Source of the DNA: Burkholderiales bacterium
GTDB taxonomy: Bacteria; Pseudomonadota; Gammaproteobacteria; Burkholderiales; SG8-39
Length of the DNA stretch: 64,000 bases
Assembly: GCA_027493935.1 (NCBI GenBank)
Contig: JAOSJV010000010.1
Span: forward strand, 654,387 to 718,386
Direction: 5' to 3'
Shown here: positions 8 through 29,461 of the stretch, piece after piece
Layout: every line of letters starts with the position of its first letter
Position numbering within the stretch: position 1 is the first letter of the stretch
Notes under the pieces: model-generated
What the model saw: the letters and a program-made list of their open reading frames with translations, nothing else
The model's database searches: none
Told to the model about the DNA's origin: nothing
Position numbers and translations under genes: made by a program

Positions 8-937
8 CTATCCGGCGAGCGCCGCGTCGACGATCCCTGCCGAAAGGAGCACGGTGAGCTGCACGAGCGACGCGAAGAAGTTGCCGAGCGCCCGCTTGCG
101 GGTGGGATTCGCGGCGAGCCGCAGGCTCATGAGCACAAAGAGCGCCCCGCCCGCCGCCGCGCCAGCGCCGTAGATCCAGCCCATGCCGTACGCCAGCGGC
201 ACGAATGACAGCGCGACGAGCGCGAGAGTGTGCGCGAGGATCGCAAGCGCACAGGCGCGGTCGCCGACCACCACCGGGAGCATCGGCACGCCGGCGGCCG
301 CGTAATCGTCGCGGCACACCATCGCCAGGCTCCAGAAGTGCGGCGGCGTCCACAGGAACAGCACCACCGCCAGGACAAGCGGCACTGCCGGCAGGCCGTC
401 GGGCACGACCGCCGCGGCGCCCGCCAGCACTGCGAAGCTGCCTGCCAGCCCGCCGATCACGATGTTCCACCACGTCCGGCGCTTGAGCCAGACGGTGTAG
501 ACCACCGCGTAGACGAACGCGCCGAGGAAGGTGTAGAGCGCAGCGAGCCAGTTGGTCGCGAGCGCCGCCGCGGCCACCGATGCCACGGTGAGCGCCGCGA
601 GCAGCGCCGGGAAGCGGCGGTCGTGCGCGAGCGCGCCAGTCACGAACGGGCGCGTCATGGTGCGCTTCATGCGCGCGTCGAGATCGCGCTCGTACCACTG
701 GTTGAAGCCGCCGGCGGCGGCCGCGGACACGAACACTGCCAGGCCGAGCACCGCGATCTGCCAGCCCGCGGGCGCCGCGCCGGGGGTCATCGCGAGCCCG
801 GCGAGGGCGGTGAACCCGATGACGACCCCGATGCGCAACTTGAACAGCCCGACCACCGTCGCAGCCGCGGCGAGCGCCCGATGGGGGGCCCGCCCGGCGC
901 CGGCCCCGGAAGGTGCGGTTTCGGTGAAGCTTGCCAT
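8..937 (-). CDS. ctaB: Protoheme IX farnesyltransferase (heme o synthase)
   Basis: Multi-TM protein with UbiA/CtaB motifs FNQWYERDLDARMKRTMTRP, YTVWLKRRT and LWTPPHFWSL; last gene of the heme-copper oxidase operon. Confidence 0.93.
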   Translation of the reverse strand: MASFTETAPSGAGAGRAPHRALAAAATVVGLFKLRIGVVIGFTALAGLAMTPGAAPAGWQIAVLGLAVFVSAAAAGGFNQWYERDLDARMKRTMTRPFVTGALAHDRRFPALLAALTVASVAAAALATNWLAALYTFLGAFVYAVVYTVWLKRRTWWNIVIGGLAGSFAVLAGAAAVVPDGLPAVPLVLAVVLFLWTPPHFWSLAMVCRDDYAAAGVPMLPVVVGDRACALAILAHTLALVALSFVPLAYGMGWIYGAGAAAGGALFVLMSLRLAANPTRKRALGNFFASLVQLTVLLSAGIVDAALAG

Positions 938-1018
938 CTCCGCATCTCCTGTGTGGTGCTCCCGTTCCCGTCCGCAGAGCTGCGCTCGCGGGGGACTTGC
1001 CCGCCCCCCTCTCGCGCG

Positions 1019-1043
1019 AGATCCCCGCTTGCGTGGGGATGAC
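1019..1043. repeat. REP/dRS3-like palindrome, single copy
   Basis: Reverse complement reads GTCATCCCCACGCAAGCGGGGATCT, the same family as GTCATTCCCGCG..GGAATCC at 24.15, 29.48 and 48.58 kb. Confidence 0.6.
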
Positions 1044-1076
1044 GCTGCGCGCGCGGCTGTCGCCGCTTGCGCAGCG

Positions 1077-2805
1077 TCACTTCAGCGGCCAGACGGTGGA
1101 CAGGTACTTCCAGTTGATGAAGTAGTACAGCACGAAGGCCACCAGGAACACGATCGCCAGGACGAACGTGCCCGAGGCGGACCAGGCGTGCGTGCCCACG
1201 CCGCCGGTCCCGGTGAGCGATGCGGCCACCGAACCGGTCGGCGCCGGCGCGACGCCATCGCGCGCCCGCACGTGCTGGAAGCCGGGCGTCTCGATCTTCT
1301 TGCCGAGGAACACCGAGTAGACGGTGACCAGCAGGTACATCGCACCGCCCACGACCGCGAGCACACCGCCGATCCCCATCAGTCCGATCATCAGCCACGC
1401 GGTGCCGGGGGAACTCGAAACCGAGCGGGTTGCCGGAGAAGGCGACGTCCCAGTGCCGGCGCGGTACGCCGAGCGTGCCCGCGCCCATCATGAACAGCGA
1501 GAACACCGTCATGCCCAGACCGAACACGTAGGGCTGCCACTTGGCCACCCCCGGGAACGCCATCTCGCGCCGGAAGAGCACCGGGATGAGGAAGTAGGTG
1601 ATCCCCATGAAGGCCATGGTCGTACCGAGCACGACCGTCGCGTGGAAGTGGCCCGGCACGTAGAACGTGTTGTGCATGATCAGGTTCAGCTGCTCGGTGC
1701 CGAGGATCACCCCGGAGATCCCGCCGAGGAAGCCGAAGCCGATGATGCTGATGAAGATCGACGAGAACACCGGGTTGCCCCACGGCGCCTTGCGCAGCCA
1801 CTCGAACAGGCCCTTGTTGAAGCCCTTCTGGCGCTGCGCCACCTCGATCGCCCCCGGCACCGTCAGGCCGTGCACCATCGACGCCAGCACGGCGAGGTAG
1901 AACGCGTAGCTCGTGTTGAGGATCTTCCACTTCGAGGTGAGGCCCGGATCGGCCAGCAGGTGGTGCGCGCTCGCGATCGTGATGAACAGGATGTAGAGCA
2001 GGAAAGCCGTGCGGCTCACCTTCTCGCTCATCGGCTTGGCGCCGAACAGGATCGCCGCGCCCGCGTACCATACCGCCACGTGCGCCGACACGTTGATCTG
2101 CTGCGAGCTGTGGCCGAAGGCCCAGAAAATGTGGCGGTACATCAGCGAGTCGATGGTCGGCACCATCCCGATCGACCACAGGAAGGTCGGGATCAGGATG
2201 ATGGCGCCGGAGGCGATCGTGAATACCGCGATGATCGCCGCGGTGAGCGCGCCGAAGGTGACGAGCGGCACCGAGCCGTTGTAGGTGCGCTCGGATTTGC
2301 CCACCGCCAAGGTGGCGAAGAAAACGAAGCAGCCGATCAGGGCGCCGACCGCGAACAGGATCAGCCCGAGATAGAACGTCCAGTGCGCGCCCATCGGCGC
2401 GTAGGCCGTGAACATCACGCTCGAGTCCTGGCGTACGAACACCGCATAGTTGTTCATCAGCCAGCCGATCACCATCAGCCAGAAGCCGGCCCACGCCCAG
2501 CGCGGCGCCGCCAGCCGGCAGTTGAGCAGCGTCGAGCCGGCGAAGTACAGCACCGCGATCTCGAAGAAGATGATCCAGAACACGAGCATGTTCAGCCCGT
2601 GGCCGGTGAGCACCATGTAGAACGCGTCGGGCGCGAGCAGGTGCACCGTCTGCCAGCGGGTCAGCGTCACCAGCAGCGCGAGGATGCCGCCGACCAGCAG
2701 CGCGACCACGCCGACCACCGCGTTCCAGCGGATCAGCGCGTCGGCCGGCTGATGGAACTTGAGGCCCGTCGTCGGGCAGGTCCGGAACATTCGATTGACA
2801 GCCAT
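1077..2805 (-). CDS. Heme-copper oxidase superfamily subunit I, eNOR-like nitric oxide reductase (frameshift at ~1407-1411)
   Basis: All six His ligands present (TGHG, FGH, AHH, GHFH). Helix VI reads FGHSSQQINV, with Gln instead of Tyr at H+4. Removing one base in a G5 run joins 787..2805 to 1077..1391 (GFEFPGTAWLMIGLMG). Confidence 0.85.
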
Positions 2806-2820
2806 GGCCGCGCCTCCCTC

Positions 2821-3378
2821 TTACTTCTTGTCGGTGACGTACAGCTTGCTCACCATCGTGTGATGGTTGATGCCGCAGTACTCGTTGCAGATGATCGAGT
2901 ACGTGCCCGCCTTGGTCGGCTGCACGGTGAGGATATGCTCGTAGTTCGGGTGCACCTGGATGTTGATGTTCTCCGGCTGCAGCGAGAAGCCGTGCAGCCA
3001 GTCGAGCGACATCAGGTGCAGGCGGTAGGTCTGGCCGGCCTCGAGCTCGAGGATCGGCTCCCACTGCCAGAGCCGGGCGACGAGATAGACGTCGCTGCCC
3101 GCGGGCGGCTTCACGACCGGGATCTTGACTTCGTTCAGCCCGGTCTCCTCGCGCACCTTGTACTTGCCGACCATCTCCTGCACCTTCGCCGTGAAGCCCT
3201 CCGGGGTGTTGCGGTAGGCCTCGTTCGAGAGGTTCTGCTTACCGAACACGTGCCAGTACGGCATCATGAAGAACAGGAACATGCACCAGACGAAAGCCAT
3301 CAAGATCCAGGTGATCTCCACCTTCTCGATCGGCTCCTTCCACCACAGCCGGTTGGACGGCGGCTGAATCGCGCTCAT
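2821..3378 (-). CDS. Heme-copper oxidase subunit II with CuA site (eNOR subunit II)
   Basis: One TM helix plus cupredoxin domain: WLHGFS...CNEYCGINHHTM. Confidence 0.9.
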   Translation of the reverse strand: MSAIQPPSNRLWWKEPIEKVEITWILMAFVWCMFLFFMMPYWHVFGKQNLSNEAYRNTPEGFTAKVQEMVGKYKVREETGLNEVKIPVVKPPAGSDVYLVARLWQWEPILELEAGQTYRLHLMSLDWLHGFSLQPENINIQVHPNYEHILTVQPTKAGTYSIICNEYCGINHHTMVSKLYVTDKK

Positions 3379-3415: not shown

Positions 3416-3592
3416 TCAGGGCGCGATGGGAACGCTGACGATTTCCATCACGCCCCAGATGAGGTACAGCACCGTCGGAACCACCACGCCGAGAAAGAGC
3501 AGCATCCACGGATTGTCGAGCAGCTGCTGCATGAACGGCTCGGGCTCTTCCGGGATCTCCTCGTACGCGAGCGGCTGGTTTTTCTCGGCCAT
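3416..3592 (-). CDS. Small single-TM protein, probable accessory subunit of the eNOR-like oxidase
   Basis: 58 aa with an acidic N-terminus and hydrophobic helix (LDNPWMLLFLGVVVPTVLYLIWG); AGGAG RBS; first gene of the operon. Confidence 0.75.
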   Translation of the reverse strand: MAEKNQPLAYEEIPEEPEPFMQQLLDNPWMLLFLGVVVPTVLYLIWGVMEIVSVPIAP

Positions 3593-3713: not shown

Positions 3714-3727
3714 TTGATGTGACTCAA
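3714..3727. promoter_or_regulatory. FNR/DNR-type box
   Basis: TTGAT-GTGA-CTCAA in the divergent eNOR/ctaA promoter region. Confidence 0.75.
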
Positions 3728-3752
3728 ATAAACCCCAGTGCTGATGGGCGGT

Positions 3753-3766
3753 TTGATCCATGTCAA
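3753..3766. promoter_or_regulatory. FNR/DNR-type box
   Basis: TTGAT-CCAT-GTCAA, the second box in the same intergenic region. Confidence 0.75.
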
Positions 3767-10070: not shown

Positions 10071-11036
10071 ATGCGCAGTCTCTTGATGCCCGCTCTGATA
10101 TTCACGCTGGCGCTCGCCGGCCCGGCCCGCGCCGACCCGGCGGCCGAGGGCAAGGTCCTGTTCGAGCAGAAATGCGCCTCGTGCCACACCATCGGCGGCG
10201 GCGACCGCATCGGGCCGGACCTGCACGGCGTCGCCGAGCGCCGGCCGCAGGAGTGGCTGCTGCGCTTCGTCACCGAGCCGGACAAGATGATCGCGGCCAA
10301 GGACGAGGTCGCGGTGCGCCTGTACGAGAAGTACAACCGCATCATCATGCCCAACCTCGGTCTCGCCGAGAACGACGCGCGCGCGCTGCTCGCGCACATC
10401 CAGGCGGCGAGCTCGGCCACCCCGCCGGCTGCGGCAGCCCCGCCGACACCGCTGCGTATGCCGCGGCCGCAGCTCATCGCGCCGCAGTCCACCATTCTCG
10501 TGGCTTTCCTCGCGCTTGCGGCCGTGATCATCGCGGTCTTCGCCTGGGTCGCGCTCAGCACCCGCTCGCCCGCCGAGGTCGACGTGAAAAAGGCGTACGG
10601 GGTGCGCAAGATCTTCTTCGTCACCGCCAGCGTCGTGCTCGTCGCGCTGCTCATCGCGACGCTGCCGCGCGCGCCGTACGCCGGCGCCGACGTCAAGCCG
10701 GACCGCATCGTGCACGTCGCCGCGCGGCAATTCGACTTCGTTTTCTCCGACGAGCCGATCGTCAGCGCGTCCGACCTCGGCCGCGTGCCGACCATCCAGC
10801 GGCTCGAGCTGAAAGCGGGCGCGCTGGTCGAGTTCCGCGTCACCGCGCTCGACGTGAACCACGGATTCGGCCTGTACGGGCCGCAGCGCCAGCTCCTCGC
10901 CCAGACCCAGGCGATGCCGGGCTACGTCAACCGGCTGGTGGTGCGGCTCGCCGAGCCCGGCCAGTACAAGGTGTTCTGCCTCGAGTACTGCGCCGCCGGG
11001 CACCATCTCATGCAGTCCGGCGTCACGGTGAACTGA
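10071..11036 (+). CDS. Cytochrome c - CuA subunit II fusion (sNOR NorS-like)
   Basis: Signal peptide, CASCH heme c motif with distal MP, Pro/Ala linker, 2 TM helices, CuA domain (VNHGFG...CLEYCAAGHHLM); GGAGGAG RBS. Confidence 0.88.
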   Translation: MRSLLMPALIFTLALAGPARADPAAEGKVLFEQKCASCHTIGGGDRIGPDLHGVAERRPQEWLLRFVTEPDKMIAAKDEVAVRLYEKYNRIIMPNLGLAENDARALLAHIQAASSATPPAAAAPPTPLRMPRPQLIAPQSTILVAFLALAAVIIAVFAWVALSTRSPAEVDVKKAYGVRKIFFVTASVVLVALLIATLPRAPYAGADVKPDRIVHVAARQFDFVFSDEPIVSASDLGRVPTIQRLELKAGALVEFRVTALDVNHGFGLYGPQRQLLAQTQAMPGYVNRLVVRLAEPGQYKVFCLEYCAAGHHLMQSGVTVN

Positions 11037-18075: not shown

Positions 18076-19635
18076 TCAGTGGCTGGTGCCCTCCGAGCGC
18101 GTGATCTTGTTGTGGACGTTGTACTTGCCCACCGGCCGCCTCATCGGCAGTCGCTTCACTTCCCGGAACGTCGCCGCGTCGTAGATTACGAGCGCGCCGT
18201 CCATCTCCCATACCGAGACCAGCGCATGGCGGCCGTCGCGCGTGAACTCGACGTGCGCGGCGGTCTTCCCGGGAGCGGGCGTCACCGACGCCACCACCTC
18301 GAGCGAGCGCTTGTCGATGATCTGCAGCGTGTCCTTCTTCGGGCTCATCATCGCGTCCACCCAGGCGTAGGGTGTGGCCTCGTGGCTGCGCATGAAGAAG
18401 CCCGGGCCATTGGTCGGGATCTGCCGCACCAGTTGCCAGCGCTTGACGTCGATCACGCTGACCACACCCTCCTTGAGATTGGGCGTGGCCATCACCCGCG
18501 AGCCGCCGTGCTCCCACGTGATGCCCGAGCCGAGGTGGGGCATGCCCGGCAGGTCGAGGTCGGCGATCTTGCGGCGCACGTCGAGGTGTACCACCTGGCC
18601 CTTGCGGCCCTCGCTGCGCGAGGCGCCCATCAACTGGCTGTAGTCCGGCGTGAAGAAGAAGTCGTCCAGGTAGTCCTGCAGCATCGAGCGGCGCGGGTTG
18701 AGGAAGCCGGGGACGAACGCGCCCTCCCGGTACCGGAAATCGTGGATCATCCCGGTCGGAATCTCGGGCGCCTTCGGGTCGTAGCTGATCTCCCAGACCT
18801 CCGGGATGTCCTTCAGCGCGGCGACGAAGCTCCTGCGCGGGGCGGCGGTATACACCGCGGACACGCGCGAGGTGCGCTCGCCCTTGCCGTCGACCACAGC
18901 CAGCAGCTTCACCGGGCGAAGGTCCGCGTCCAGCACCACGAGCGTGTGCGGCAGGTAGTTGCCCACCATCACGTGCTTCCCGTCGCCCGACACCGCGGCG
19001 TTGCGGGTGTTCAGACCGGCGCGGATCTCGGCGATCATGCGCAGGTTCCACAGGTCGTACTTCGAGATCCAGCCGTCGCGCGAGGCGAAATAGACGAAGC
19101 GGCCATCGGGCGAGAACTTGGGCCCGCCGTGCAGCGCGTAGCGGCTGGCGAAGCGCGCGAGCGGCGTGAAGCGGTCGCCGTCGAGGACCGTGACGTGATG
19201 GTCGCCCGCCTCCACGACCACGAAGAGGTTCAGCGGGTCGGCGTCGAACGCGGGCTTCGCCGGCAGCAGCGCGGTATCGGCGTGTACCACGCGCGAGGCC
19301 CGGATGTCGTCGAGCCCCCACTCGGGTTTCGTCGCCGGCTCGGCGTAGACGTAGGCGACCAGCGCGTCGATCTCGTCCGGCGCGAGCCTGTCCGCGAAGC
19401 CCGGCATTTGCGTGGCGACGCGGCCCTCGGCGATGACCTGCGCCGCGGCCGGCCTGCGCAGCCGCTCCAGATTCGACGGCAGCAGCGCCGGGCCCGTGCC
19501 GCCGAAGCGGTCGGCCCCATGGCATGCGGCGCAGTGCTCCGCGTACAGTTCGGCGGCCGCACTCACCGCCGCGGCCGGCGGCACGGTTGCGGCGAGCGCC
19601 AGCGCTAGCATCATCGCCGCACGCGCGCGCCTCAT
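18076..19635 (-). CDS. nirN: NirN, cytochrome c/d1-domain protein of heme d1 maturation
   Basis: CAACH heme c motif plus d1 beta-propeller (LHGGPKFS, MPHLGSG, FFMRSHE, GKYNV); last gene of the nir operon. Confidence 0.92.
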   Translation of the reverse strand: MRRARAAMMLALALAATVPPAAAVSAAAELYAEHCAACHGADRFGGTGPALLPSNLERLRRPAAAQVIAEGRVATQMPGFADRLAPDEIDALVAYVYAEPATKPEWGLDDIRASRVVHADTALLPAKPAFDADPLNLFVVVEAGDHHVTVLDGDRFTPLARFASRYALHGGPKFSPDGRFVYFASRDGWISKYDLWNLRMIAEIRAGLNTRNAAVSGDGKHVMVGNYLPHTLVVLDADLRPVKLLAVVDGKGERTSRVSAVYTAAPRRSFVAALKDIPEVWEISYDPKAPEIPTGMIHDFRYREGAFVPGFLNPRRSMLQDYLDDFFFTPDYSQLMGASRSEGRKGQVVHLDVRRKIADLDLPGMPHLGSGITWEHGGSRVMATPNLKEGVVSVIDVKRWQLVRQIPTNGPGFFMRSHEATPYAWVDAMMSPKKDTLQIIDKRSLEVVASVTPAPGKTAAHVEFTRDGRHALVSVWEMDGALVIYDAATFREVKRLPMRRPVGKYNVHNKITRSEGTSH

Positions 19636-20831
19636 GTCGCCGCCGCCTTTCTGCGGCTATACGGCGACACCGACAATCGCGCGCGCTCGGGCGCGACGCC
19701 GATCTCCTCGTCGTCCAGGTAGCAGCCCGGGTCCTCCTCCCACGCGTCGCCGGTCAGGCTGCGCGCGCGGGTGCGGGTGTTCCCACCGCACACGTCGAAG
19801 TAGGCGCACGCGCCGCAGCGGCCCTTGATCGAGCGCGGGCTCGCCTTGAGGCCCGCCATGATCGGGTCGGAGTCGTCCCGCCAGATCTCCGAGAAGGCCC
19901 GCTGGCGCACATTGCCGAGCGTGTAGTCCCACCAGTAGGTGTCCGGATGCACGTCGCCGATGTTGTCGATGTTCGCGACGTTCACGCCGGAGCTGTTGCC
20001 GCCCCACTGCGCGAGCTTCGCGCGCACGTGCGCTTCCATGTGCGGCAGGTTGCGCCGCACCCACAAGAGAAAGTACACGCCGTCGGCGTCGTTGTTGCCG
20101 GTCACGAACTCCTTTGCGAGACCGCGCGACTGGCGGTCCCAGCACGTGTCGAACAGGAGATCCATCGCGCGGCGCGTGGTGGCGAGGTAGGCGTCGTGCC
20201 GACGGTTCACGTTGCCTCGTCCGGCGTAATTCAGATGCGACAGGTAGAACTTGTCGATGCCCTCGGACTCGGTCAGCGCGAGAAGCCATGGCAGGTCGTC
20301 GCGATTCGCCTCGGTCAGCGTGAAGCGAACGCCGATCTTGATGCCGGCGTCGCGGCAGCGGCGCAGCGCGTCGATCGAGGCGTCGAACGCACCGGCCTTG
20401 CGCCGGAACCGGTCGTGGGTCGCGCGCCGCCCGTCCAGACTGATGCCGACGTAGTCGAAGCCGACCTCGGCGACGCGGGCCACGTGCGGCGCGTCCATCA
20501 GCGTGCCGTTGGTCGAGAGCGCGGTATAGAACCCCTCGGCTCTCGCGCGGTGCGCGATGTCGAAGATGTCTGGCCTGAGCAGCGGCTCGCCGCCGGAGAG
20601 AATGAGCACCGGCACGCCGAAGCGCTTGAGGTCGTCCATGACGCCGAACACCTCTGCGGTGGACAGCTCGCCCGGGAAGTCGATGTCGGCGGACACCGAG
20701 TAGCAGTGCCGGCACGTCAGGTTGCACCGCCGGATCAGGTTCCAGATCACCACCGGTCCCGGTGGATTGCGCTTCGGCCCCACCGGCGTCGGCGCTGCCA
20801 GCTCCTGCATGAATTGCGAGACGCGGAACAT
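19632..20831 (-). CDS. nirJ: Heme d1 biosynthesis radical SAM protein NirJ
   Basis: GPVVIWNLIRRCNLTCRHCY; C-terminal SPASM-type cysteines. Confidence 0.93.
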   Translation of the reverse strand: MFRVSQFMQELAAPTPVGPKRNPPGPVVIWNLIRRCNLTCRHCYSVSADIDFPGELSTAEVFGVMDDLKRFGVPVLILSGGEPLLRPDIFDIAHRARAEGFYTALSTNGTLMDAPHVARVAEVGFDYVGISLDGRRATHDRFRRKAGAFDASIDALRRCRDAGIKIGVRFTLTEANRDDLPWLLALTESEGIDKFYLSHLNYAGRGNVNRRHDAYLATTRRAMDLLFDTCWDRQSRGLAKEFVTGNNDADGVYFLLWVRRNLPHMEAHVRAKLAQWGGNSSGVNVANIDNIGDVHPDTYWWDYTLGNVRQRAFSEIWRDDSDPIMAGLKASPRSIKGRCGACAYFDVCGGNTRTRARSLTGDAWEEDPGCYLDDEEIGVAPERARLSVSPYSRRKAAAT

Positions 20832-20848
20832 CGCAGGTTTCTCCTTTT

Positions 20849-20956
20849 CCCCTCCTCTCCGAGGGGTGCCGGCGAAGCCGGCGGGGTGGTGACCGCCGAT
20901 CGGGACTCGAGCCACCCCGGCTGCTTCGCAGCCACCCCTGCTCGAAAAGGAGGGGA
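20849..20956. repeat. Palindromic repeat family 2, copy 1
   Basis: CCCCTCCT...GCCGGCGAAGCCGGCGGGGTGGT...ACCCCGGCTGCTTCGCAGCCACCCCT...AGGAGGGG; an inverted related copy lies at 46691-46803. Confidence 0.7.
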
Positions 20957-20976
20957 AAAGGAACCAGGCAACGCCT

Positions 20977-21477
20977 TCACTCCGCTCTCAACCGCAACCC
21001 CGTCTTCTTCAGGATCCGCCTGCTGTAGAGCACCTCGTGCGCGCGCGCCGCGTCGCCGAGCAGCGCGGCGATCTCGCCGACGTGCGCGCCGACCTCGTCG
21101 CGCGTGCGGCCGTGGACCATCGCGAACAGGTTGTAGCGCCAGCGCGGCGGCACGCGCGGCCGGCGATAGCAGTGGCTCACGAACGCGAGCGCGCCCACCT
21201 GCGGGCCGAGCGCCGCAATGCGGTCGTCCGCGACGTCCCACACCGACATGCCGTTCGCCGGGTAGCCGAGCGCGTAGTGGTTCGGCACCGCGGCGATGCG
21301 CCGGATCACGCCGAGCGACTTCATGCGGGCGAGCCGCGCCATCACCTCCTCGGCCGACAGCCCGAGCGAGCGCGCCACCGCGTGGTAGGGCTCGACGGCG
21401 AGCGGCAGTCCGCCCTGCGTCGCGAGGATGATCGCGCGGTCGGTCTGATCCAGCCGGATCTCGGCGGGCGCGTTCAT
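20977..21477 (-). CDS. nirH: Siroheme decarboxylase subunit NirH
   Basis: Lrp/AsnC-like; VPNHYALGY, VSHCYRR, YNLFAMVH, ILKKTG. Confidence 0.9.
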   Translation of the reverse strand: MNAPAEIRLDQTDRAIILATQGGLPLAVEPYHAVARSLGLSAEEVMARLARMKSLGVIRRIAAVPNHYALGYPANGMSVWDVADDRIAALGPQVGALAFVSHCYRRPRVPPRWRYNLFAMVHGRTRDEVGAHVGEIAALLGDAARAHEVLYSRRILKKTGLRLRAE

Positions 21478-21479
21478 TG

Positions 21480-21923
21480 CTACACGGCGATGCGCAGATC
21501 GAGGAAGTACTCGTCGAGCTTGGGCAGGTCGAGCACCGCGAGCCCCGTCTCCCGCTCGATGTCGGCGATCACGCGGGCAACCGCCTCGGGCCGCTCGCAC
21601 GCAACCACGAACCACATATTGAGCGCGTGCTCGCGCTCGTAGTTGTGCGCCACTTCCGGGTGCGCGTTCACGAGCGCGGCCACGCGATCGAAATCCGCGG
21701 CCGGGACGCTCATCGCGGCGAGCGTGAAGGCGCCGCCCATCGCCGTCGCGTCGTACATCGGGCCGAAGCGCGTGAGCGCACCGTCGGCGAGCAGGCGCGC
21801 GATGCGCGCGAGGAGCGCGTCCTCCTCCACGTCGAGCGCGGCGGCCACCGGTGCAAACGGCCGCGCGGCGACCTCGACGCCGTGCTGCAGCCGGTTCACG
21901 ACGGCGCGGTCGAGCTCATCCAT
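21480..21923 (-). CDS. nirG: Siroheme decarboxylase subunit NirG
   Basis: RFGPMYD, VAHNYEREH, NMWFV. Confidence 0.9.
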   Translation of the reverse strand: MDELDRAVVNRLQHGVEVAARPFAPVAAALDVEEDALLARIARLLADGALTRFGPMYDATAMGGAFTLAAMSVPAADFDRVAALVNAHPEVAHNYEREHALNMWFVVACERPEAVARVIADIERETGLAVLDLPKLDEYFLDLRIAV

Positions 21924-22956
21924 GGCGCAGCTCCGCCGGCACGCCGTAGCGCGCGCCCGTCTGCTTGAAGCGGCGCAGGCTGAACAGCGCTGCGTGCGGA
22001 TGGTGCCCTAGCCCGTGGCGCGCCTCGATGCCGGCGAGCTTGCCGAGCACCTCCGGACGCGACCTGCCGTGCAGCATGCAGTACAGGTTGTAGCGCCAGT
22101 GCGGCGCAGCCCGCTCCCGCCGGTAGCACAGCGTGACTGCCGGCTCGTCGGCGAGCCCGCGCCCGACCGCGCTCACTTCCGCGTCGGGCACGTCCCAGAC
22201 GCACATTGCGTTCGCGCCGAACCCGAGCTCGTGATGACGCACGACGACGCCGAACCGCCGGATCAGCCCGAGGGCCTGCCAGGCGGCAAGCGTCTCCAGG
22301 ACCGCACCCTCGCTCACCCCGGCGCGCCCCGCGAGCACCGCGAACGGGCGCGGGACGAGGTCGAGTCCGTCCTGCAGCGCGGCGACCAGCCGCTGCCCCG
22401 ACGGGCTGACCGCGATGCGCGGCGGCGGCCCGCCCGATACGCGCTTCGGAAGCTCGGCAGCGCCCGATCGACGGCCTGCCAGCGCGCGACCGTCCCCTGG
22501 CGCTGCGCGCCGGCCGGCGAGGTCGAAGCCGAGATCGATGTGGAACTCCTCCACGAGCGGCAGCGAGAGCACCTCGATGCCGGTCGTCTCGCCGATCGCG
22601 CGCAGCACCTGGCGCAACCGGCCCGCGTCGGGCGCGGCGGCGACGAACCACAGGTTGAGCCGGTGTTCGCGCTCGTAGTTGTGGTTGACCTCGCGAAAGC
22701 CGGAGACGTAGCGCGCAACCGTGGCGAGCCGCCCGGCCGGAACCGCCATCGCCGCCAGCGACGAGGCGCCGATCGCATTCGGGCGGAAGACCGCGCCGAC
22801 CCGGCTGACCGCGCCGTGCGTCCTGAGCCGCGCGAGCGTCTCGAGCACCGAATCGCAGGATGTGCCCAGACGGCGGGCGATCGCGGCATACGGCTCGGAC
22901 ACCAGCGGGAAGTCGCGCTGGAAGTCGTTCAGCAGCCTGAACTCGAGCTCGCCCAT
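21916..22956 (-). CDS. nirD: Fused siroheme decarboxylase NirD-NirL
   Basis: Two Lrp-like halves: FQRDFPL..VNHNYEREH and RRFGVVVRHHELG..TLCYRR..YCMLHG..FKQTG. Confidence 0.88.
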   Translation of the reverse strand: MGELEFRLLNDFQRDFPLVSEPYAAIARRLGTSCDSVLETLARLRTHGAVSRVGAVFRPNAIGASSLAAMAVPAGRLATVARYVSGFREVNHNYEREHRLNLWFVAAAPDAGRLRQVLRAIGETTGIEVLSLPLVEEFHIDLGFDLAGRRAAPGDGRALAGRRSGAAELPKRVSGGPPPRIAVSPSGQRLVAALQDGLDLVPRPFAVLAGRAGVSEGAVLETLAAWQALGLIRRFGVVVRHHELGFGANAMCVWDVPDAEVSAVGRGLADEPAVTLCYRRERAAPHWRYNLYCMLHGRSRPEVLGKLAGIEARHGLGHHPHAALFSLRRFKQTGARYGVPAELRHG

Positions 22957-22958
22957 GG

Positions 22959-24254
22959 TCACAGGCCGATCTTTCGCGCGCGCCAGGTGAAGAAGATCCC
23001 GCTCGGGCTCTGCGCCGGCAGCTCGGCGAGCTTGCGGAAGCTCGCCGTGTCGTAGACGACGACGCGGTGCGAATCGCGCGCCGAGATCCAGATCTGGTCG
23101 CCGCGCGCGGTGAATTCCATGTGCAGGACGGTCTTGCCGGGCTCGAGCGACTCCACCGGCGCGAGCGTGGCGACGTCGATCACCTGCACGACGCCGTTGC
23201 GCGGGAACGCGAAGTTGACCCACACCTGGCGGCCGTCCGGCCGCGCCATGACGAACACCGGTTGGCCGTGCACCGCGATCTCGGCGGTCTGCTTCCAGGT
23301 GCGCCGGTCGACCACCAGCACGGCGTGCCTGCCGATCGCCGGCAGGAAGGCATAGTCGCCGGCGATCGCCCAGCCGCGAAGATGCGGCATCTTGTAGACG
23401 GGCAGCTTCTCGCCGCCGCGGCCGTAGCCGTCGAGGATGCGCCGCACGCCGGCGTCGAGGTCTTGCATGTCGAGCAGCGCGAGGCCGTCCTCGCCGAACA
23501 GCCCCGCGATGTAATGCCTCCCGTCCGGGGTGATCAGCGCATCGTAGGGCAGGCTGCCGACGTTGGCGAACTTGCGCACCCGCGGGCGCCGCGGATCGGC
23601 CACATCGGCGACCCAGATCGCGTCGGCCTCGAACAGGCTGAAGACGAACCGATCGCCCGGCGCGTCGGCGATGCCGACCACCTTCGCACGCTTGCCTTCG
23701 GACCCGTAGGTCGACGGGATCTCGGACAGGAGCTCGAGCGAGGCGGCGTCGAAGATCTTGACCCCGCCCGGATCGTAGTTCGCGACCGCGACGAGGCGAC
23801 CGTCCTTGGAAATCGCGCCGCCGATCGAGTTGCCCGCCTGCACCGTCCGGGCGAGCGTCCTGCGCGCGACGATGTCGATCTTCGTGAGACCGCCGTCGCG
23901 CCCGAACACGAATGCGTGCCGGCCGTCGGGCGAGTAGACGATCGCCGCGTGCGAGAGGTCGCCCAGGCCCTCGATGCGCGCGAGGCTCGCGTGCTTCGCC
24001 TGGTCCACCACCTGGACGCTGCCGGTGGCGCGCTCGATCACGACACCGAGCCGGTCGGTGGACTGCGGCACCACCGGCGCGCAGGCCGCGAGGGCGAGCG
24101 CGGCGGCCGCGACCAGGAGCCCCCTAGGGAAGCTCTGAACAACCTCGTCATTCCCGCGCGAGCAGGAATCCAGTGCAAGCGCAATCAACCGCTCCCAGGA
24201 TGCCCGGTTTCGCTGGGATGACTTGATCAGAGGTTCCCTACTGGCGCGTCTCAT
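22959..24254 (-). CDS. nirF: Heme d1 biosynthesis lipoprotein NirF, with an in-frame 38-aa MITE insertion in its signal peptide
   Basis: Lipobox LAAC; GDLSHA, PVYKMPHLRGW, GQPVF, PSGIFF. Confidence 0.92.
   Translation of the reverse strand: MRRASREPLIKSSQRNRASWERLIALALDSCSRGNDEVVQSFPRGLLVAAAALALAACAPVVPQSTDRLGVVIERATGSVQVVDQAKHASLARIEGLGDLSHAAIVYSPDGRHAFVFGRDGGLTKIDIVARRTLARTVQAGNSIGGAISKDGRLVAVANYDPGGVKIFDAASLELLSEIPSTYGSEGKRAKVVGIADAPGDRFVFSLFEADAIWVADVADPRRPRVRKFANVGSLPYDALITPDGRHYIAGLFGEDGLALLDMQDLDAGVRRILDGYGRGGEKLPVYKMPHLRGWAIAGDYAFLPAIGRHAVLVVDRRTWKQTAEIAVHGQPVFVMARPDGRQVWVNFAFPRNGVVQVIDVATLAPVESLEPGKTVLHMEFTARGDQIWISARDSHRVVVYDTASFRKLAELPAQSPSGIFFTWRARKIGL
24127..24238. mobile_element. 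112-bp non-autonomous MITE with a REP doublet, flanked by TA
   Basis: TA|GGGAAGCTCTGAACAA ... TTGATCAGAGGTTCCC|TA (16-bp TIR, 2 mismatches); internal GTCATTCCCGCG..GGAATCC and GGATGCCCGG..GGGATGAC. Confidence 0.8.
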
Positions 24255-24618
24255 CGCGCAATCCGTTCTGCAGCTGATCCACGATCCAGGCCGCCTCCGC
24301 CTCGCTCACGAATGGCCGCCAGGGCGGCATCGCGGTGCCAGGCCGCCCGTTGACGATCGTGAGCGCGAGGCTCTCGGCCGGCTTGTCGCGCAGGGCGTCG
24401 GGCGTGAGCGGCGGCCCCAGCCCGCCTTTGAGCATCATGCCGTGGCAGGACCCGCAGTCCTGGCGCACGAGCGTGACGAGCTCGCGCTGCCGTTCCACGC
24501 GCGGTCCCGCGCCGCCGCCGGCAGCCGCAGCGGCCGTCACGGCGAGCGCGGCGGAGGTCACGATCAGGAGGGCTGGGAGGAGTCGCACGGCGCAGGTCAC
24601 GGTCCGGATTACCGCCAT
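24238..24618 (-). CDS. nirC: Cytochrome c55X NirC (start uncertain)
   Basis: RQDCGSCHG..KGGLGPPL..GRPGTAMPPW. Confidence 0.92.
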   Translation of the reverse strand: MAVIRTVTCAVRLLPALLIVTSAALAVTAAAAAGGGAGPRVERQRELVTLVRQDCGSCHGMMLKGGLGPPLTPDALRDKPAESLALTIVNGRPGTAMPPWRPFVSEAEAAWIVDQLQNGLRDETRQ

Positions 24619-24644: not shown

Positions 24645-24658
24645 TTGATGCACCTCAA
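24645..24658. promoter_or_regulatory. FNR/DNR-type box upstream of nirC
   Basis: TTGAT-GCAC-CTCAA located between the nirS terminator and nirC. Confidence 0.7.
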
Positions 24659-24772: not shown

Positions 24773-26533
<1,761 letters not shown>

Positions 26534-26605: not shown

Positions 26606-26619
26606 TTGACTTGCGTCAA
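26606..26619. promoter_or_regulatory. FNR/DNR-type box upstream of nirS
   Basis: TTGAC-TTGC-GTCAA. Confidence 0.8.
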
Positions 26620-26670: not shown

Positions 26671-28415
26671 TCAGCGCCCGGGGCGGCCGGCGTCGTCGGC
26701 CGGCGGATGCTCGTCGGGGATTCCTCCGGCGGCGGAGGGCTCCATCGCCTGCACCAGCTCGCGCGCGCGCGAGGCCCGCTCGTGCCGCTTGCGGCGCTCG
26801 ACCAGCGGCATGCACTTGTTGTTGTCGTAATAGGTCACCTGGCAGTCGAGGCAATAGTGGCACTCGTTGGCGTTGATCTCGCCGGTCTGGCGGATCGCGC
26901 TCACCTCGCACTCGCGCGCGCAGATCTGGCACGGCCGGCCGCACTCCTTGCGCCGGCGCAACCACCAGTCGAACACGCGGAACCGCCCGGGGATCGAGAG
27001 CGCCGCGCCGAGCGGACAGAGGTACTTGCAGAAGAACTTGCGGTTTGCCGCCGCGATCGCGAGCAGCGCTCCGGCGTAGAGCAGGAACGGCCACTCGCGC
27101 TGGAACCGAAGGACGATCGTGGTCTTGAACGGCTCGATCTCGGCGAAGCGCGCCGCCTCGGTGAGCGACTGCAGCGAGATGCCGAAGAGCAGGATGAGCA
27201 CCAGGTACTTCACCGCCGTCAGCCGCTCGTGCACCACCTCCGAGAAGTCGAGCTGGCGCACCCCGAGCCGCCGTGCGAGCTGGTTGCCGAGCTCCTGCAG
27301 CGCACCGTACGGGCACAGCCAGCCGCAGTACACGCCGCGGCCCCAGAGGAGCAGCGTGAGGGCGACGAAGCCCCACAGGATGAAGAGCATCGGATCGATC
27401 AGGAAATTCTCCCAGCGGAAGTCGTGCGTCACCGCATGCACGAAAGTGAGCACGTGAACCACCGAGAGCTGCGCGAGCGTGTACCAGCCGATGAAGAAGA
27501 GGGTGTAGAGCAGGAAGCCGCGCCGCACGTACCACAGCAGCGCGGGACGCCGCGCGAGCCAGTCCTGGAACACCAGGATCGCGGCGAGCGCGAGCAGCCC
27601 GAGCACCAGCAGCGCGATCCGGCCGGTGCTCTCGCGCCACACCTGTTTCCACAATGGCTCCGCCTCGAACGACTGCGCTTCGGAAACCGACGGCACGGCG
27701 CGCATCTGTACCGCCGGCGGCTGCGTCCGTGCCTGGGCGGCGGACGCCGCTGCCGGCGGGGCGCGCGGTGCCGGCGGCTCGGCGGCTACCGTCCGCCCGG
27801 GCGGCGCGGCAGGCGTACCGACACTGGCGGGTGCCGGCGCCGCTTCGCCCCCCGGTCGCAGGCCGCGCGACTCCGCGACGATGCGCGCGGCGCGGGTGAC
27901 GGTCGCGTTCTGGACCATGACCGTGATCGTCGCCCCGGAGATCGTATCCACGGCGACGTGGCCCGCGCGCGGCGCCCCGACCGTGATGTTGTCGAACACC
28001 GACTTTCCGACGTACTGGTCGGTGAACGCCTTCAGGCGCGCCTCCGAGATGCCGACGGCGAGGATCGGCTCCTGGTGCTCGACGATCGCGACCCCGGTGA
28101 TGCGCCCGGCGAGATCGAAGCCGACCAGCGTATTGATCGGCTCGCCCGAATAGGCGGGGATCTGCACCACGTCGTTGGTGAGCAGCAGATAGCCGATCAG
28201 TCCCTCGGCGCGATAGACGGGCGCCGCGCGCGGCTCGCCCTCGAATGCGCCGAAACGGTCGGCCGCCGGAAAGAAGGCGCGCGCCTGTGGGAAGCGCGCC
28301 AGCGCGGATTCGGCGCGCGCGGCGCCGATCGCGCCGCACGCGAGCGCATACGCGATGAGCAGCGCCCCAGGGCACGCAGGGGCGCTCGGCGGCGCGGGAG
28401 CGATCTCGGCGGCAT
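26671..28415 (-). CDS. nirI: NosR/NirI family FMN-binding, iron-sulfur membrane protein (probable frameshift at ~28366-28369)
   Basis: [13 protein letters not shown]-binding motif; [42 protein letters not shown]. The frame is open upstream of 28170, and one added base gives the signal peptide [20 protein letters not shown]. Confidence 0.85.
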
Positions 28416-28454
28416 TCGGAGCGCATATTGGAATGGCCCCCGCCCGGCGCGCCT

Positions 28455-28495
28455 TTGACGTGCGTCAAACGCGACGGCGATTTGACCCGCGTCAA
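28455..28495. promoter_or_regulatory. Two FNR/DNR-type boxes in the divergent nirI/nirE promoter
   Basis: TTGAC-GTGC-GTCAA (28455-28468) and TTGAC-CCGC-GTCAA (28482-28495). Confidence 0.8.
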
Positions 28496-28552
28496 AGTCG
28501 CCTCCGGAGCGGCCACATAGATTGCAGGGACACGGTGGGCAGGAGAGATCGG

Positions 28553-29461
28553 GTGGGCGATTCGGACAAGAAGAACCTTGCACCGGAGCTGCAAGCGGCG
28601 CGGGGCGACGACGCCGCGCCGCGTGTGCGCGCGGCGCGCCGGACTGCGGCCCGCCGCGGCAGCGCGGTCGGCTCAGCGGGCGAGGGGGTCGTGTACCTCG
28701 TCGGCGCCGGGCCCGGCGACCCGGAGCTCCTCACGCTGAAGGCGGCGCGGCTGCTGCAGCAAGCCGACGTCTGCGTCTACGACCACCTGGTGAGCAACGA
28801 CGTGCTCGGCCTGGTGCGCCGCGACGCCGAGCTCGTCTACGCCGGCAAGGAGAAGTCGAACCACGCGCTGCCGCAGTCGGATATCAACGCGCTGCTCGTC
28901 GCGCTCGCGCGCAAGGGCAAGCGGGTGCTGCGCCTGAAGGGTGGCGATCCGTTCATCTTCGGCCGCGGTGGCGAGGAGATGCAGTTCCTCGCCGAGCACG
29001 GCGTGCCGTTCGAGGTGGTTCCGGGCGTGACCTCGGCGAGCGGCGCCTCGGCCTACGGCGGCATCCCGCTCACGCACCGCGACTACGCGCAGGCGTGCGT
29101 GTTCGTCACCGGCCACCGCAAGAACGGCACGTGCGATCTCGACTGGCCGATGCTCGCCCGCTCCAACCAGACGGTGGTGTTCTACATGGGGCTGGGGCAG
29201 ATCGCGGAGATCTGCGAGCAGCTCAAGGCCCACGGCCTGCCCGCGGACTGGCCCGCCGCCGCGGTGGAGCGTGCGAGCACGGCGAAGCAGCGCGTCGTGA
29301 CCGGCACCCTGTCGACGCTGCCCGGCCGGACGGCGCACGCAGGCGTACGCGCGCCGGCGCTGATCATCGTCGGCGAGGTCGTGAAGCTGCGTACCGAGCT
29401 CGGCTGGTTCGACACCGACGCCGAGCGCCAGATTACCCACCCCGAACCCGCGCACGCCTAG
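28553..29461 (+). CDS. nirE: Uroporphyrinogen-III C-methyltransferase (NirE/CobA)
   Basis: [43 protein letters not shown]; adjacent to the nir cluster. Confidence 0.92.

What the first reader, a model, noticed from the sequence alone, without database searches (positions are those of the whole stretch)
8..29461. Denitrification region pairing NirS with two different non-canonical NO reductases (eNOR-like and sNOR-like) and no cNOR/qNOR
Seen: a full nirS/heme d1 cluster, two heme-copper oxidase operons lacking the active-site Tyr (H+4 = Gln in one, Asn in the other), an FNT channel and six FNR-type boxes. No norBC/norZ gene is in the window. Known: eNOR and sNOR are B-family-derived NO reductases that pipelines routinely label as cytochrome c oxidase. 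Inference: NO made by NirS is reduced by two CuA-fed enzymes under separate control (FNR boxes at eNOR, none visible at sNOR). A standard norB screen would score this organism as an incomplete denitrifier.
Basis: partly seen in the sequence, partly recalled or inferred. Interest (0 to 1): 0.85.

Follow-up and report, generated by a model that had tools for sequence, protein, structure and literature searches.

The report
NirS cluster with eNOR and sNOR
A sludge bacterium keeps its nitrite reductase genes beside two unusual copper-fed nitric oxide reductases of already described families, so it is a sound but ordinary example of denitrifiers that standard gene screens misjudge.

Summary
The window carries a full nirS/heme d1 cluster, an FNT channel, six FNR-type boxes (0.12 expected) and two CuA-type heme-copper operons. 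Their subunits I have Gln (787-2805) or Asn (11061-12482) where oxygen reductases have the cross-linked Tyr.

In my trees the first lies in a fully supported all-Gln clade next to B-family oxidases. The second lies in a 99%-supported clade (21 Asn, 1 His) that includes the subunit II-I-senC cluster of an amoA-bearing genome. Both fit the published eNOR and sNOR criteria.

No norB/norZ, nosZ or globin was found in the 86.6%-complete genome. A third, nNOR-like enzyme lies on another contig.

The eNOR subunit I frame is broken in the window at about 1407. Contigs from three independent DNA runs lack that base, so this is an assembly error.

NirS-eNOR linkage is usual in the genus. The sNOR and nNOR-like genes are rare additions, shared with one other genome of 150 searched in the family.

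The families, genomes with several NORs, and mislabelling as cytochrome oxidase are all in print. This is a new member of a known kind. Function remains inferred.

The parts
8..937 (-). ctaB/heme O synthase (UbiA family), last gene of the eNOR operon that lies in the window
   Evidence: Pfam UbiA 169.9 bits. Conserved after eNOR subunit I in G046 and G024.
1077..2805 (-). eNOR-type subunit I. The window's frame breaks in a G5 run at 1403-1407, and the C-terminal part continues in the frame that ends at 1077.
   Evidence: COX1 221 bits. GHSSQQ, AHH and GHFH motifs. Frame change seen. Three DNA runs lack one base at 1407. Read-through frame is 575 aa against 574-aa homologues. Lies in the 100* Gln clade.
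2821..3378 (-). eNOR-type subunit II with a full CuA site (H...CxxxCxxxHxxM)
   Evidence: COX2 match. Motifs HGFSL and CNEYCGINHHTM read.
3416..3592 (-). 58-aa single-helix ORF heading the eNOR operon, a possible small subunit
   Evidence: Frame plot and translation. Conserved at this place in G046 (67% identity) and G024 (64%).
3714..3766 (.). two FNR/Dnr-type boxes (3714-3727, 3753-3766) between the eNOR operon and ctaA
3760..4894 (+). ctaA heme A synthase, divergent from the eNOR operon. The window's frame is broken at 4635.
   Evidence: COX15-CtaA 322 bits. One base is left out at 4635 in the contigs of three DNA runs.
10071..11036 (+). sNOR-type subunit II: N-terminal cytochrome c (CASCH), a membrane helix and a CuA cupredoxin domain
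   Evidence: Cytochrom_C plus COX2. CLEYCAAGHHLM motif. Start codon and ribosome-binding site read. Present in 77 of 80 named loci.
11061..12482 (+). sNOR-type subunit I (473 aa): GHTLVN, FHH, AHFH, E242
   Evidence: COX1 169 bits. Sequence. Lies in the 99* Asn clade with the type found in ammonia oxidisers. The S309 equivalent is Ala and position 242 is acidic.
12487..13261 (+). SCO1/SenC-like copper chaperone (CTGVC). The frame shifts near 13100 in the window.
   Evidence: Frame plot and translations. Homologue follows subunit I in 76 of 80 named loci and in the amoA-bearing genome.
13315..14208 (-). dienelactone hydrolase family gene, part of the sNOR module shared with G024
14402..15202 (+). 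FNT (formate/nitrite) channel
   Evidence: Form_Nir_trans 230 bits. An FNT gene lies within 6 kb of the sNOR genes in 6 of 80 named loci.
15228..17078 (-). GAF, winged-helix and BTAD regulator, candidate regulator of the sNOR module
   Evidence: Pfam. Next to the sNOR module in G024 and in 10 of 80 named loci.
18076..24618 (-). heme d1 genes nirN, nirJ, nirH, nirG, nirDL and nirF, plus a small cytochrome c
   Evidence: Pfam
24645..24658 (.). FNR/Dnr-type box between nirS and the cytochrome c gene
24773..26521 (-). nirS, cytochrome cd1 nitrite reductase
   Evidence: Cytochrom_D1 508 bits plus a cytochrome c domain
26606..26619 (.). FNR/Dnr-type box about 90 bp upstream of the nirS start
26671..28170 (-). 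NosR/NirI-like membrane FMN/Fe-S protein
   Evidence: FMN_bind plus Fer4_5. NCBIfam NosR 617 bits, below its cut-off of 1000.
28455..28495 (.). two FNR/Dnr-type boxes (28455-28468, 28482-28495) between the nosR-like gene and nirE
28355..29461 (+). nirE (uroporphyrinogen-III methyltransferase). The true start is probably later than 28355.
   Evidence: TP_methylase 195 bits, with the domain starting at residue 113

Best explanation
The first 29.5 kb of the window is a denitrification island of a betaproteobacterium (order Burkholderiales by the names on its closest homologues) found in bioreactor and activated-sludge metagenomes.

Proposed mechanism (inferred):
- Periplasmic NirS, with its heme d1 made by nirE and nirFDLGHJN, reduces nitrite to NO. 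The FNT channel probably moves nitrite across the membrane.
- Membrane heme-copper enzymes descended from B-family oxidases, which have lost the cross-linked Tyr needed for O2 reduction, then reduce NO to N2O.
- The eNOR-type enzyme consists of a small subunit, a CuA subunit II and a subunit I with Gln. It is encoded with heme O and heme A synthases and a copper chaperone, and it keeps a ba3-like K-type proton path.
- The sNOR-type enzyme has a subunit II in which cytochrome c is fused to CuA, a subunit I with Asn and a conserved Glu, and its own SenC.
- Electrons arrive from periplasmic cytochrome c through CuA.
- FNR/Dnr-type boxes place nirS, the d1 genes and eNOR in one low-oxygen/NO regulon.
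- The sNOR module has no such box and travels with a GAF-BTAD regulator, so it is probably controlled separately.
- No NosZ was found, so the predicted end product is N2O.

Shown here: gene content, motifs, clade membership, box positions, synteny, and absence of norB, nosZ and globin from the assembly.

Inferred, not shown: NO reductase activity, electron donors, proton uptake and regulation.
For: - Gene map by Pfam and NCBIfam.
- Gln236 and Asn230 align with Tyr237 of ba3 and the Tyr of aa3 oxidases. All His ligands are kept.
- CuA motifs are present in both subunits II.
- eNOR-type subunit I: the best solved relatives are B-family oxidases (E about 1e-45, against 1e-12 for the A family). 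It lies in a 100* clade of 5 of 5 Gln rows. S309, Y248, S261 and T315 of ba3 are kept. 119 of 120 close homologues have QQ at this site.
- sNOR-type subunit I: it lies in a 99* clade of 22 rows (21 Asn, 1 His), together with the subunit II-I-senC-orf cluster of an amoA-bearing genome. The S309 equivalent is A, V or I in 20 of 22 rows, and position 242 is E or D in 22 of 22, as PMC11214002 describes for sNOR. Asn is present in 76 of 80 named loci (2 have His, 2 were unreadable).
- Six FNR-type boxes, all within this island.
- Genome-wide: narG present. No norB/norZ, no nosZ and no globin were found.
- nirS and eNOR lie 9-23 kb apart on one contig in 4 of 6 congeners.
- An RNA library holds contigs from both operons. 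This is weak evidence, because DNA carry-over is not excluded.
Against: - No enzyme activity or regulated expression could be tested.
- According to PMC11214002, sNOR activity is proposed and has not been shown for any member.
- No labelled eNOR, sNOR or bNOR reference sequence (for example Rhodothermus marinus) could be put in the tree. The sNOR anchor rests on my inference that genome G273 is an ammonia oxidiser (amoA hit, locus GC 46%).
- Only 1 of 5 amoA-bearing genomes had the sNOR-type gene.
- By sequence, the sNOR-type subunit I is closer to solved A-family chains (2e-13) than to ba3 (about 1e-7).
- Only 1 of 80 named sNOR loci has nirS within 6 kb.
- The genome is 86.6% complete and holds 6,304 N. 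One congener (G070) has both norB and nosZ.
- The trees used a quick search with SH-aLRT support only, and they contain long branches.
Confidence: 0.72

Rival explanations
1. One or both enzymes are not respiratory NO reductases. The Asn-type enzyme in particular could have another role, such as NO detoxification only, another substrate, or a low-turnover oxidase-like activity. In that case NirS-derived NO would be handled mainly by the eNOR-type enzyme or by the nNOR-like enzyme on contig C1.
For: - PMC11214002 calls sNOR 'proposed'.
- Only 1 of 80 named sNOR loci has nirS within 6 kb.
- The sNOR module has no FNR-type box.
- It was absent from all 6 congeners that carry nirS.
Against: - The Tyr needed for O2 chemistry is absent in 22 of 22 clade rows.
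- Per PMC11214002, the active site is the same as in the biochemically shown bNOR.
- Here and in Sulfuritalea sp. PRO1 the module sits inside a nir region with an FNT channel.
Confidence: 0.15
2. A canonical cNOR or qNOR exists in the unassembled or masked part of the genome and carries most of the NO reduction. The two operons would then be accessory.
For: - Completeness is 86.6% and the contigs hold 6,304 N.
- Congener G070 has a NorB-type gene (HMWVE, GHHYFW, SHGH) and nosZ.
Against: - The COX1 family search and tblastn with the G070 NorB found only CcoN, at 21% identity.
- In congeners G014 (100% complete), G046 and G090, every COX1 match whose motifs I read was not NorB. The matches whose motifs I did not read include a 154-residue fragment at a contig end in G014.
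- G024, which shares the eNOR, sNOR and nNOR-like genes, also shows no NorB.
Confidence: 0.1
3. The eNOR-type subunit I is a pseudogene, meaning the frameshift at 1403-1407 is real.
For: The window's own sequence changes frame there.
Against: - Every contig covering the site in three DNA runs from three studies lacks one base.
- The read-through frame is 575 aa, and 84 of its last 100 residues are identical to a 574-aa homologue.
- The same runs show four more single- or two-base differences from the window, as expected for homopolymer errors.
Confidence: 0.03

Closest known systems
eNOR (Rhodothermus marinus enzyme; family of Murali et al. 2024, PMC11214002; Gln criterion in PMC8756737)
   Same: - Gln at the Tyr site.
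- CuA subunit II.
- B-family kinship.
- K-channel-like residues.
- ctaA and ctaB in the gene cluster.
- Found in wastewater Betaproteobacteria.
   Different: - No labelled eNOR sequence could be compared, so identity to the characterised enzyme is unknown.
- Here the operon continues into SCO1, two cytochrome b/Fe-S genes, a flavin reductase and a second heme-copper paralogue.
sNOR (norSY-senC type of ammonia oxidisers; the gene names are recalled, the family is from PMC11214002)
   Same: - Asn at the Tyr site.
- S309 missing.
- Conserved acidic residue.
- Gene order CuA subunit II, then subunit I, then SenC.
- 39-40% identity to the gene of an amoA-bearing genome, and the same 99* clade.
   Different: - Subunit II carries an N-terminal cytochrome c domain that the 174-aa subunit II of the amoA-bearing genome lacks.
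- It belongs to the larger FFFGH-TLVN / YFHHLYMD subclade rather than the YFFGH-VxIN / YPHHLLMD subclade.
bNOR / qCuANOR of Bacillus azotoformans
   Same: Same active-site residue (Asn) according to PMC11214002 and PMC8756737.
   Different: Per PMC11214002, bNOR is confined to Bacillales and is not closely related to sNOR. No bNOR sequence was available for testing.
ba3-type (B-family) cytochrome c oxidase of Thermus thermophilus
   Same: - Fold.
- Six His ligands.
- CuA subunit II.
- Most of the K-channel, for the eNOR-type enzyme.
   Different: Tyr237 is replaced by Gln or Asn, so four-electron O2 reduction is not expected.
cNOR / qNOR (NorBC, NorZ)
   Same: Same predicted reaction: 2 NO to N2O, next to NirS.
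   Different: - Different branch of the superfamily.
- Glu at the H+4 position.
- No CuA.
- No proton channel.
- None found in this genome.

Membership tests
eNOR | Gln in place of the cross-linked Tyr of subunit I (criterion used in PMC8756737) | tested here: met
   Gln236 aligns with Tyr237 of ba3. 5 of 5 clade rows have Gln, as do 119 of 120 close homologues.
eNOR | Three CuB/FeB His and both heme His ligands retained | tested here: met
   GH, AHH and GHFH are present.
eNOR | Adjacent CuA-binding subunit II | tested here: met
   HGFSL ... CNEYCGINHHTM.
eNOR | Placement in the eNOR clade of an HCO tree with labelled references | tested here: inconclusive
   It lies in a 100* all-Gln clade beside Tyr-bearing B-family rows, and its best solved relatives are ba3 types. 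No labelled eNOR sequence was obtainable, and the reference set sits in supplements that are closed.
eNOR | K-channel-like polar residues as in the B family | tested here: met
   S309, Y248, S261 and T315 are kept. T312 is His and Y244 is Val.
eNOR | Heme A-type cofactor; NO reductase but not O2 reductase activity | not testable with these tools
   Context only: ctaA and ctaB flank the operon.
sNOR | Asn in place of the cross-linked Tyr | tested here: met
   Asn230 lies under the Tyr of aa3 oxidase. 21 of 22 clade rows have Asn, as do 76 of 80 named loci.
sNOR | The S309 equivalent is missing and a family-specific conserved Glu is present (PMC11214002) | tested here: met
   A, V or I in 20 of 22 rows. 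E or D at position 242 in 22 of 22 rows and in no row of the other groups.
sNOR | CuA-binding subunit II | tested here: met
   NHGFGL ... CLEYCAAGHHLM.
sNOR | Same clade as the enzyme of ammonia-oxidising bacteria | tested here: met
   99* clade with the subunit II-I-senC-orf cluster of G273, a genome with amoA. That G273 is an ammonia oxidiser is my inference, and only 1 of 5 amoA-bearing genomes had the gene.
sNOR | NO reductase activity | not testable with these tools
   Per PMC11214002 this has not been shown for any member.
bNOR | Separate clade confined to Bacillales | not tested
   No bNOR sequence was at hand. The host here is a betaproteobacterium by the names on its homologues.
nNOR (gene on contig C1, outside the window) | Glu at the Tyr site, low-spin heme ligated by His and Met, CuA subunit II, kinship with the B side of the superfamily (PMC11214002) | tested here: met
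   AHNLME and GHTM motifs, with CLEYCGIAHHGM in the upstream 130-aa gene. Both motifs are kept in 120 of 120 homologues. It groups with the sNOR clade and not with CcoN or NorB, but on a long branch. No labelled reference was available.
cNOR/qNOR | NorB-type subunit I (Glu at H+4, GHHYFW, HGH, no CuA partner) | tested here: not met
   None among the 7 COX1 matches in the genome. tblastn with a congener's NorB found only CcoN.

The most novel reading that the evidence does not exclude
This organism, and one other genome (G024) of the 150 searched in its family, may reduce NO only with B-family-derived, CuA-fed and possibly proton-motive enzymes. These are eNOR plus sNOR and nNOR-like modules that appear laterally acquired: 87-89% identity between the two genomes, against 73% for eNOR.

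In addition, the conserved eNOR gene cluster ends in a fourth heme-copper paralogue whose metal site reads His / Glu-His instead of His / His-His. It is encoded with two cytochrome b/Fe-S proteins and an NAD(P)H-type flavin reductase. It could be an undescribed enzyme family with its own electron input.
Probability: 0.3. Interest if true: 0.6.

Novelty: new member of a known kind. Interest (0 to 1): 0.32.

Why it matters
The region is a clean, well-linked example of a nitrite-reducing bacterium from wastewater systems whose NO-reducing step is invisible to norB-based screens and to NCBI naming. Its homologues are called 'cbb3-type cytochrome c oxidase subunit I'.

Its genotype (NarG, NirS, several non-canonical NORs, no NosZ found) predicts N2O release. 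That is useful for annotation and for N2O budgets of treatment plants.

It does not change the picture. The families and the screening problem are already published, and recent surveys already classify eNOR, sNOR and nNOR (PMC12569097, passages read).

Tried and rejected
- **Labelled references.** A scan of named genomes with an sNOR alignment kept only the best 80 of at least 574 relatives (43-87% identity).
- **Protein atlas**. It gave only generic 'cbb3-type oxidase' clusters.
- **NCBIfam**. It has no model for any of these enzymes; all matches lie far below their cut-offs.
- **nos_propeller Pfam search**. Nothing rang anywhere, so it was uninformative. I replaced it with TIGR04244 and TIGR04246. 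TIGR04244 found nosZ in congener G070.
- **RNA contigs of run X15.** They cover parts of both operons. Contigs cannot show level, strand or induction, and DNA carry-over is not excluded.
- **ORFs rejected.** ORF 3375-3998(-) is rejected as a gene: its translation is Arg-rich and the frame plot does not support it. The 1715-aa ORF 7527-12674(-) is real only from about 9820 down to 7535, where it is a SelD fusion.
- **Sigma-54 site before the sNOR operon.** Considered from the sequence and not supported.
- **Supplements of PMC11214002** (family lists, reference alignment). Closed. They may already list this species.


Full report
**What is in the window.**

The DNA has about 70% G+C, so plain ORF lists are full of false frames. 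I chose genes by codon-position G+C and then by Pfam and NCBIfam.

From 8 to 29461 the window holds, in order:
- ctaB (8-937, minus strand)
- a heme-copper subunit I (787-2805, -)
- a CuA subunit II (2821-3378, -)
- a 58-aa one-helix ORF (3416-3592, -)
- ctaA (3760 onwards, plus strand)
- two unnamed ORFs
- an MFS transporter
- a SelD-oxidoreductase fusion (about 7535-9820, -)
- a cytochrome c-CuA subunit II (10071-11036, +)
- a second subunit I (11061-12482, +)
- a SenC-like gene (12487-13261, +)
- a dienelactone hydrolase gene
- an FNT channel (14402-15202, +)
- a GAF-BTAD regulator
- DUF488
- nirN, J, H, G, DL, F, a cytochrome c gene, nirS (24773-26521, -), a nosR/nirI-like gene and nirE

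The remaining 30-64 kb is unrelated catabolism.

**The observation.**

Subunit I number one reads GHSSQQ...AHH...GHFH. Number two reads GHTLVN...FHH...AHFH. HMMER alignments to solved oxidases put Gln236 under Tyr237 of Thermus ba3 and Asn230 under the Tyr of an aa3 oxidase. Both subunits II have the full CuA pattern.

TTGAY-N5-TCAA occurs at six sites, all inside the island (3714, 3753, 24645, 26606, 28455, 28482). The expectation is 0.12 for the whole window, and 0 of 100 shuffles reached this. With the stricter TTGAT-N4-ATCAA and one mismatch, three sites remain, against 0.19 expected. No box lies in the 250 bp before the second operon.

**A flaw in the window, not in the organism.**

The first subunit I leaves its frame at a G5 run (1403-1407). 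The true C-terminus continues in the frame that ends at 1077.

I laid contigs of three DNA runs from three studies and of one RNA run on 1-12600. Every contig across the site in the three DNA runs lacks one base at 1407. With that base left out, the frame is 575 aa. 84 of its last 100 residues are identical to a 574-aa homologue, whereas the uncorrected tail shares 19 of 190.

The same runs differ from the window at:
- 2815 (+C, intergenic)
- 4635 (-1, ctaA)
- 5601 (+G, which would join two ORFs)
- 7731 (+CC, the SelD fusion)

So the window carries homopolymer-type assembly errors. One of the DNA runs may be the window's own source, but the other two come from different studies.

**Family placement.**

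Table A4 of PMC8756737 (passage read) gives the residue at the Tyr site for each family:

| Residue | Family |
|---|---|
| Y | oxygen reductases |
| E | cNOR, qNOR |
| N | sNOR, CuANOR |
| Q | eNOR |
| D | gNOR |

PMC11214002 (Results read) adds several points:
- eNOR, sNOR, nNOR and gNOR derive from the B family and have CuA-type subunits.
- eNOR keeps a ba3-like K channel.
- sNOR lacks S309 and has its own conserved Glu.
- nNOR has the cNOR-type site with a His/Met low-spin heme.

For a tree I gathered the following rows:
- The window's two proteins.
- Relatives from genomes of the same family and genus.
- 18 of the 80 named loci found with an sNOR alignment.
- The gene of an amoA-bearing genome.
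- 21 of the 24 near-full-length rows among 150 representatives of a whole-library search. The other 126 are fragments. P0138, P0142 and P0276 were left out of the first tree.
- The genome's own A-family, CcoN and nNOR-like proteins.
- A congener's NorB.

The tree (52 rows, 494 columns, IQ-TREE quick search, SH-aLRT only) gave these results:
- The Gln enzyme lies in a 100* clade of five all-Gln rows. Beside it are four rows reading Q-Y, in which the Tyr is kept. Together these are sister (98*) to 13 classical B-family rows, all with Tyr.
- The Asn enzyme lies in a 99* clade of 22 rows (21 Asn, 1 His). This clade includes the YFFGH-VxIN type found in the amoA-bearing genome, where the cluster is CuA subunit II, subunit I, SenC and a membrane ORF.

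Column counts on the same alignment match the published text:
- S309 is Ser in 5 of 5 eNOR-clade rows, but A, V or I in 20 of 22 sNOR-clade rows.
- Position 242 is E or D in 22 of 22 sNOR-clade rows and in none of the others.

Asn is present in 76 of the 80 named loci. Two have His and two could not be read.

Caveats:
- No labelled eNOR, sNOR or bNOR sequence was available, because the reference sets are in closed supplements.
- The ammonia-oxidiser status of G273 is my inference.
- Only 1 of 5 amoA-bearing genomes had the gene.
- The sNOR-type protein is closer to solved A-family chains than to ba3 by E-value.
- The trees contain long branches.

**The rest of the genome.**

The window is G000:C10:654387-718386. 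The assembly has 5.19 Mb in 17 contigs, is 86.6% complete and holds 6,304 N.

The COX1 family has seven matches:
1. An A-family oxidase.
2. CcoN.
3. The eNOR-type subunit I in the window.
4. The sNOR-type subunit I in the window.
5. A 510-aa protein on C1 (2420394-2421926).
6. A weak match 5.3 kb upstream of the window.
7. A 132-aa fragment-like protein.

The C1 protein reads AHNLME (Glu at the Tyr site) and GHTM (His/Met). It follows a 130-aa CuA subunit II and lies near a heme O synthase gene. All 120 listed homologues keep both motifs. This fits the published description of nNOR.

No NorB or NorZ was found. tblastn with a congener's NorB hit only CcoN, at 21% identity. Other results:
- narG is present.
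- No napA match reached its cut-off.
- No nosZ of either clade was found. TIGR04244 did find nosZ in congener G070, which serves as a working control.
- No globin was found.
- Two NnrS genes are present.

**How common is the arrangement.**

Counts come from 150 other genomes of the same family:
- An eNOR-type gene of at least 71% identity is in 57. Seven more have only about 30%-identical B-type genes.
- An sNOR-type gene is in 9: two at 76-87% and seven at 36-42%. One of the seven is the unpublished G115, which enters this count only.
- The nNOR-like gene is in 1.
- None of the 6 congeners has the sNOR-type or nNOR-like gene.
- 4 of the 6 congeners have eNOR, and in those four nirS lies 9-23 kb from it on the same contig.
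- Three of the 150 have both eNOR and an sNOR-type gene (G024, G113, G144).
- Only G024, from another genus, has all three. Its eNOR and sNOR genes lie 15 kb apart on one contig.
- G024 shows no NorB and no clade I nosZ.

Between G000 and G024 the sNOR-type and nNOR-like proteins are 87% and 89% identical, while eNOR is 73% (congeners: 87-92%). I read this as lateral spread of the two accessory modules. That is an inference.

Around the sNOR genes in the 80 named loci:

| Gene within 6 kb | Loci (of 80) |
|---|---|
| Subunit II | 77 |
| SenC | 76 |
| GAF-BTAD regulator | 10 |
| FNT channel | 6 |
| nirS | 1 (Sulfuritalea sp. PRO1) |

**Mechanism and control.**

The boxes put nirS, the d1 genes, nirE/nosR and the eNOR operon (with divergent ctaA) under an FNR/Dnr-type factor. 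A Crp/FNR gene and a hemerythrin gene lie upstream of the window.

According to PMC11214002, eNOR uses a heme A variant whose synthesis needs O2, and it works in microoxic denitrification. The ctaA and ctaB genes here fit that picture.

The sNOR module has no box and keeps a GAF-BTAD regulator beside it in G024 and in 10 named loci. This supports separate control but does not show it.

An RNA library holds error-free contigs over parts of both operons. I count this as weak evidence.

**Novelty.**

The following are in print:
- The eNOR, sNOR and nNOR families.
- Organisms with several NORs (PMC11214002).
- Genomes with only non-canonical NORs that KEGG-type screens would call incomplete denitrifiers, with the NOR genes labelled coxA (bioRxiv 10.1101/2024.05.17.594689, passages read).
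- Large surveys that already classify these families (PMC12569097, methods passages read).

My searches found no paper on this particular organism or on the eNOR-sNOR-nNOR trio. The closed supplements of PMC11214002 may list it. I therefore rate this as a new member of a known kind, with modest interest.

**A by-product.**

The eNOR operon continues upstream of the window, on the minus strand of C10: SCO1, a cytochrome b-2Fe2S fusion, an NAD/FAD reductase, a 166-aa ORF, a cytochrome b-4Fe4S fusion and a 492-aa heme-copper-like protein. This order is conserved in G046 and, rearranged, in G024.

Across 120 homologues the last protein keeps WGGGH[VA]LQF (119 of 120), S-V-E-H (Glu in 113, His in 120) and PAHYH (120 of 120). 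At least 6,397 relatives have E at or below 1e-10. It falls in the 99* group that also holds the eNOR clade (long branch). I did not search the literature for it.

Noticed in passing
outside the window: G000:C10:647652-649130 (-), = L143:7655-9130: A 492-aa heme-copper-like paralogue (COX1 only 34 bits) with Phe at the Tyr site and Glu-His where others have His-His. Its motifs are conserved in 113-120 of 120 homologues, and it has at least 6,397 relatives. It closes a conserved cluster: eNOR, ctaB, SCO1, cytochrome b/2Fe-2S, flavin reductase, orf166, cytochrome b/4Fe-4S. In a tree it groups with the eNOR side.
   Followed up: partly
outside the window: G000:C1:2419973-2421926 (+), = L005: An nNOR-like pair: a 130-aa CuA subunit II and a 510-aa subunit I with Glu at the Tyr site and a His/Met heme ligand pair, next to a heme O synthase and a P-type ATPase. 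It was found in only 1 of 150 family genomes (G024, 89% identity).
   Followed up: partly
window 1407, 2815, 4635, 5601, 7731; also about 13100: The window differs by one or two bases from the contigs of three independent DNA runs at five places. These break ctaA, the eNOR subunit I, a SelD fusion and probably one gene at 5008-6217. A further frame change in the SenC-like gene near 13100 lies outside the stretch that was laid.
   Followed up: partly
window 7535-9820 (-): A fusion of an FAD-dependent pyridine nucleotide-disulfide oxidoreductase-like domain with selenide, water dikinase (SelD, with Cys in the GCGAK motif). I named it from the translation alone and did not confirm it by a family search.
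   Followed up: no
representatives P0134, P0140, P0146, P0166: The nearest neighbours of the all-Gln eNOR clade read GH-x-x-Q-Y. They keep the Tyr while sharing the preceding Gln and His312. They may be the oxygen-reducing kin from which the Gln type arose.
   Followed up: partly
representatives P0199, P0220, P0239, P0266; loci L136-L138: Another group of heme-copper homologues, some of them in the same bacterial family. They read Y-H instead of H-H and Y-x-H instead of H-x-H, so they appear to lack one metal ligand and the proximal heme ligand.
   Followed up: no
G000 versus G024 (L139, L140, L150): The sNOR-type and nNOR-like proteins are 87% and 89% identical between two genera whose eNOR proteins are 73% identical. 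This suggests the two accessory modules spread laterally together.
   Followed up: partly
genomes G168, G273, G316, G357, G436: Only 1 of 5 amoA-bearing genomes of one genus had an sNOR-type gene. The published statement is that most ammonia oxidisers have one.
   Followed up: no
outside the window: L143:2439-5796: Upstream neighbours of the island: a 132-aa four-helix protein with weak COX1/NnrS likeness, a GcvH-like protein, SirB, a hemerythrin-domain protein and a Crp/FNR regulator. The last is a candidate reader of the six boxes.
   Followed up: no
congener G070 (L043; C84:38149-40032): One of the six congeners carries a NorB-type gene and a clade I nosZ in addition to eNOR. Within the genus, therefore, both genotypes occur: complete (nosZ present) and N2O-ending (no nosZ found).
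   Followed up: partly
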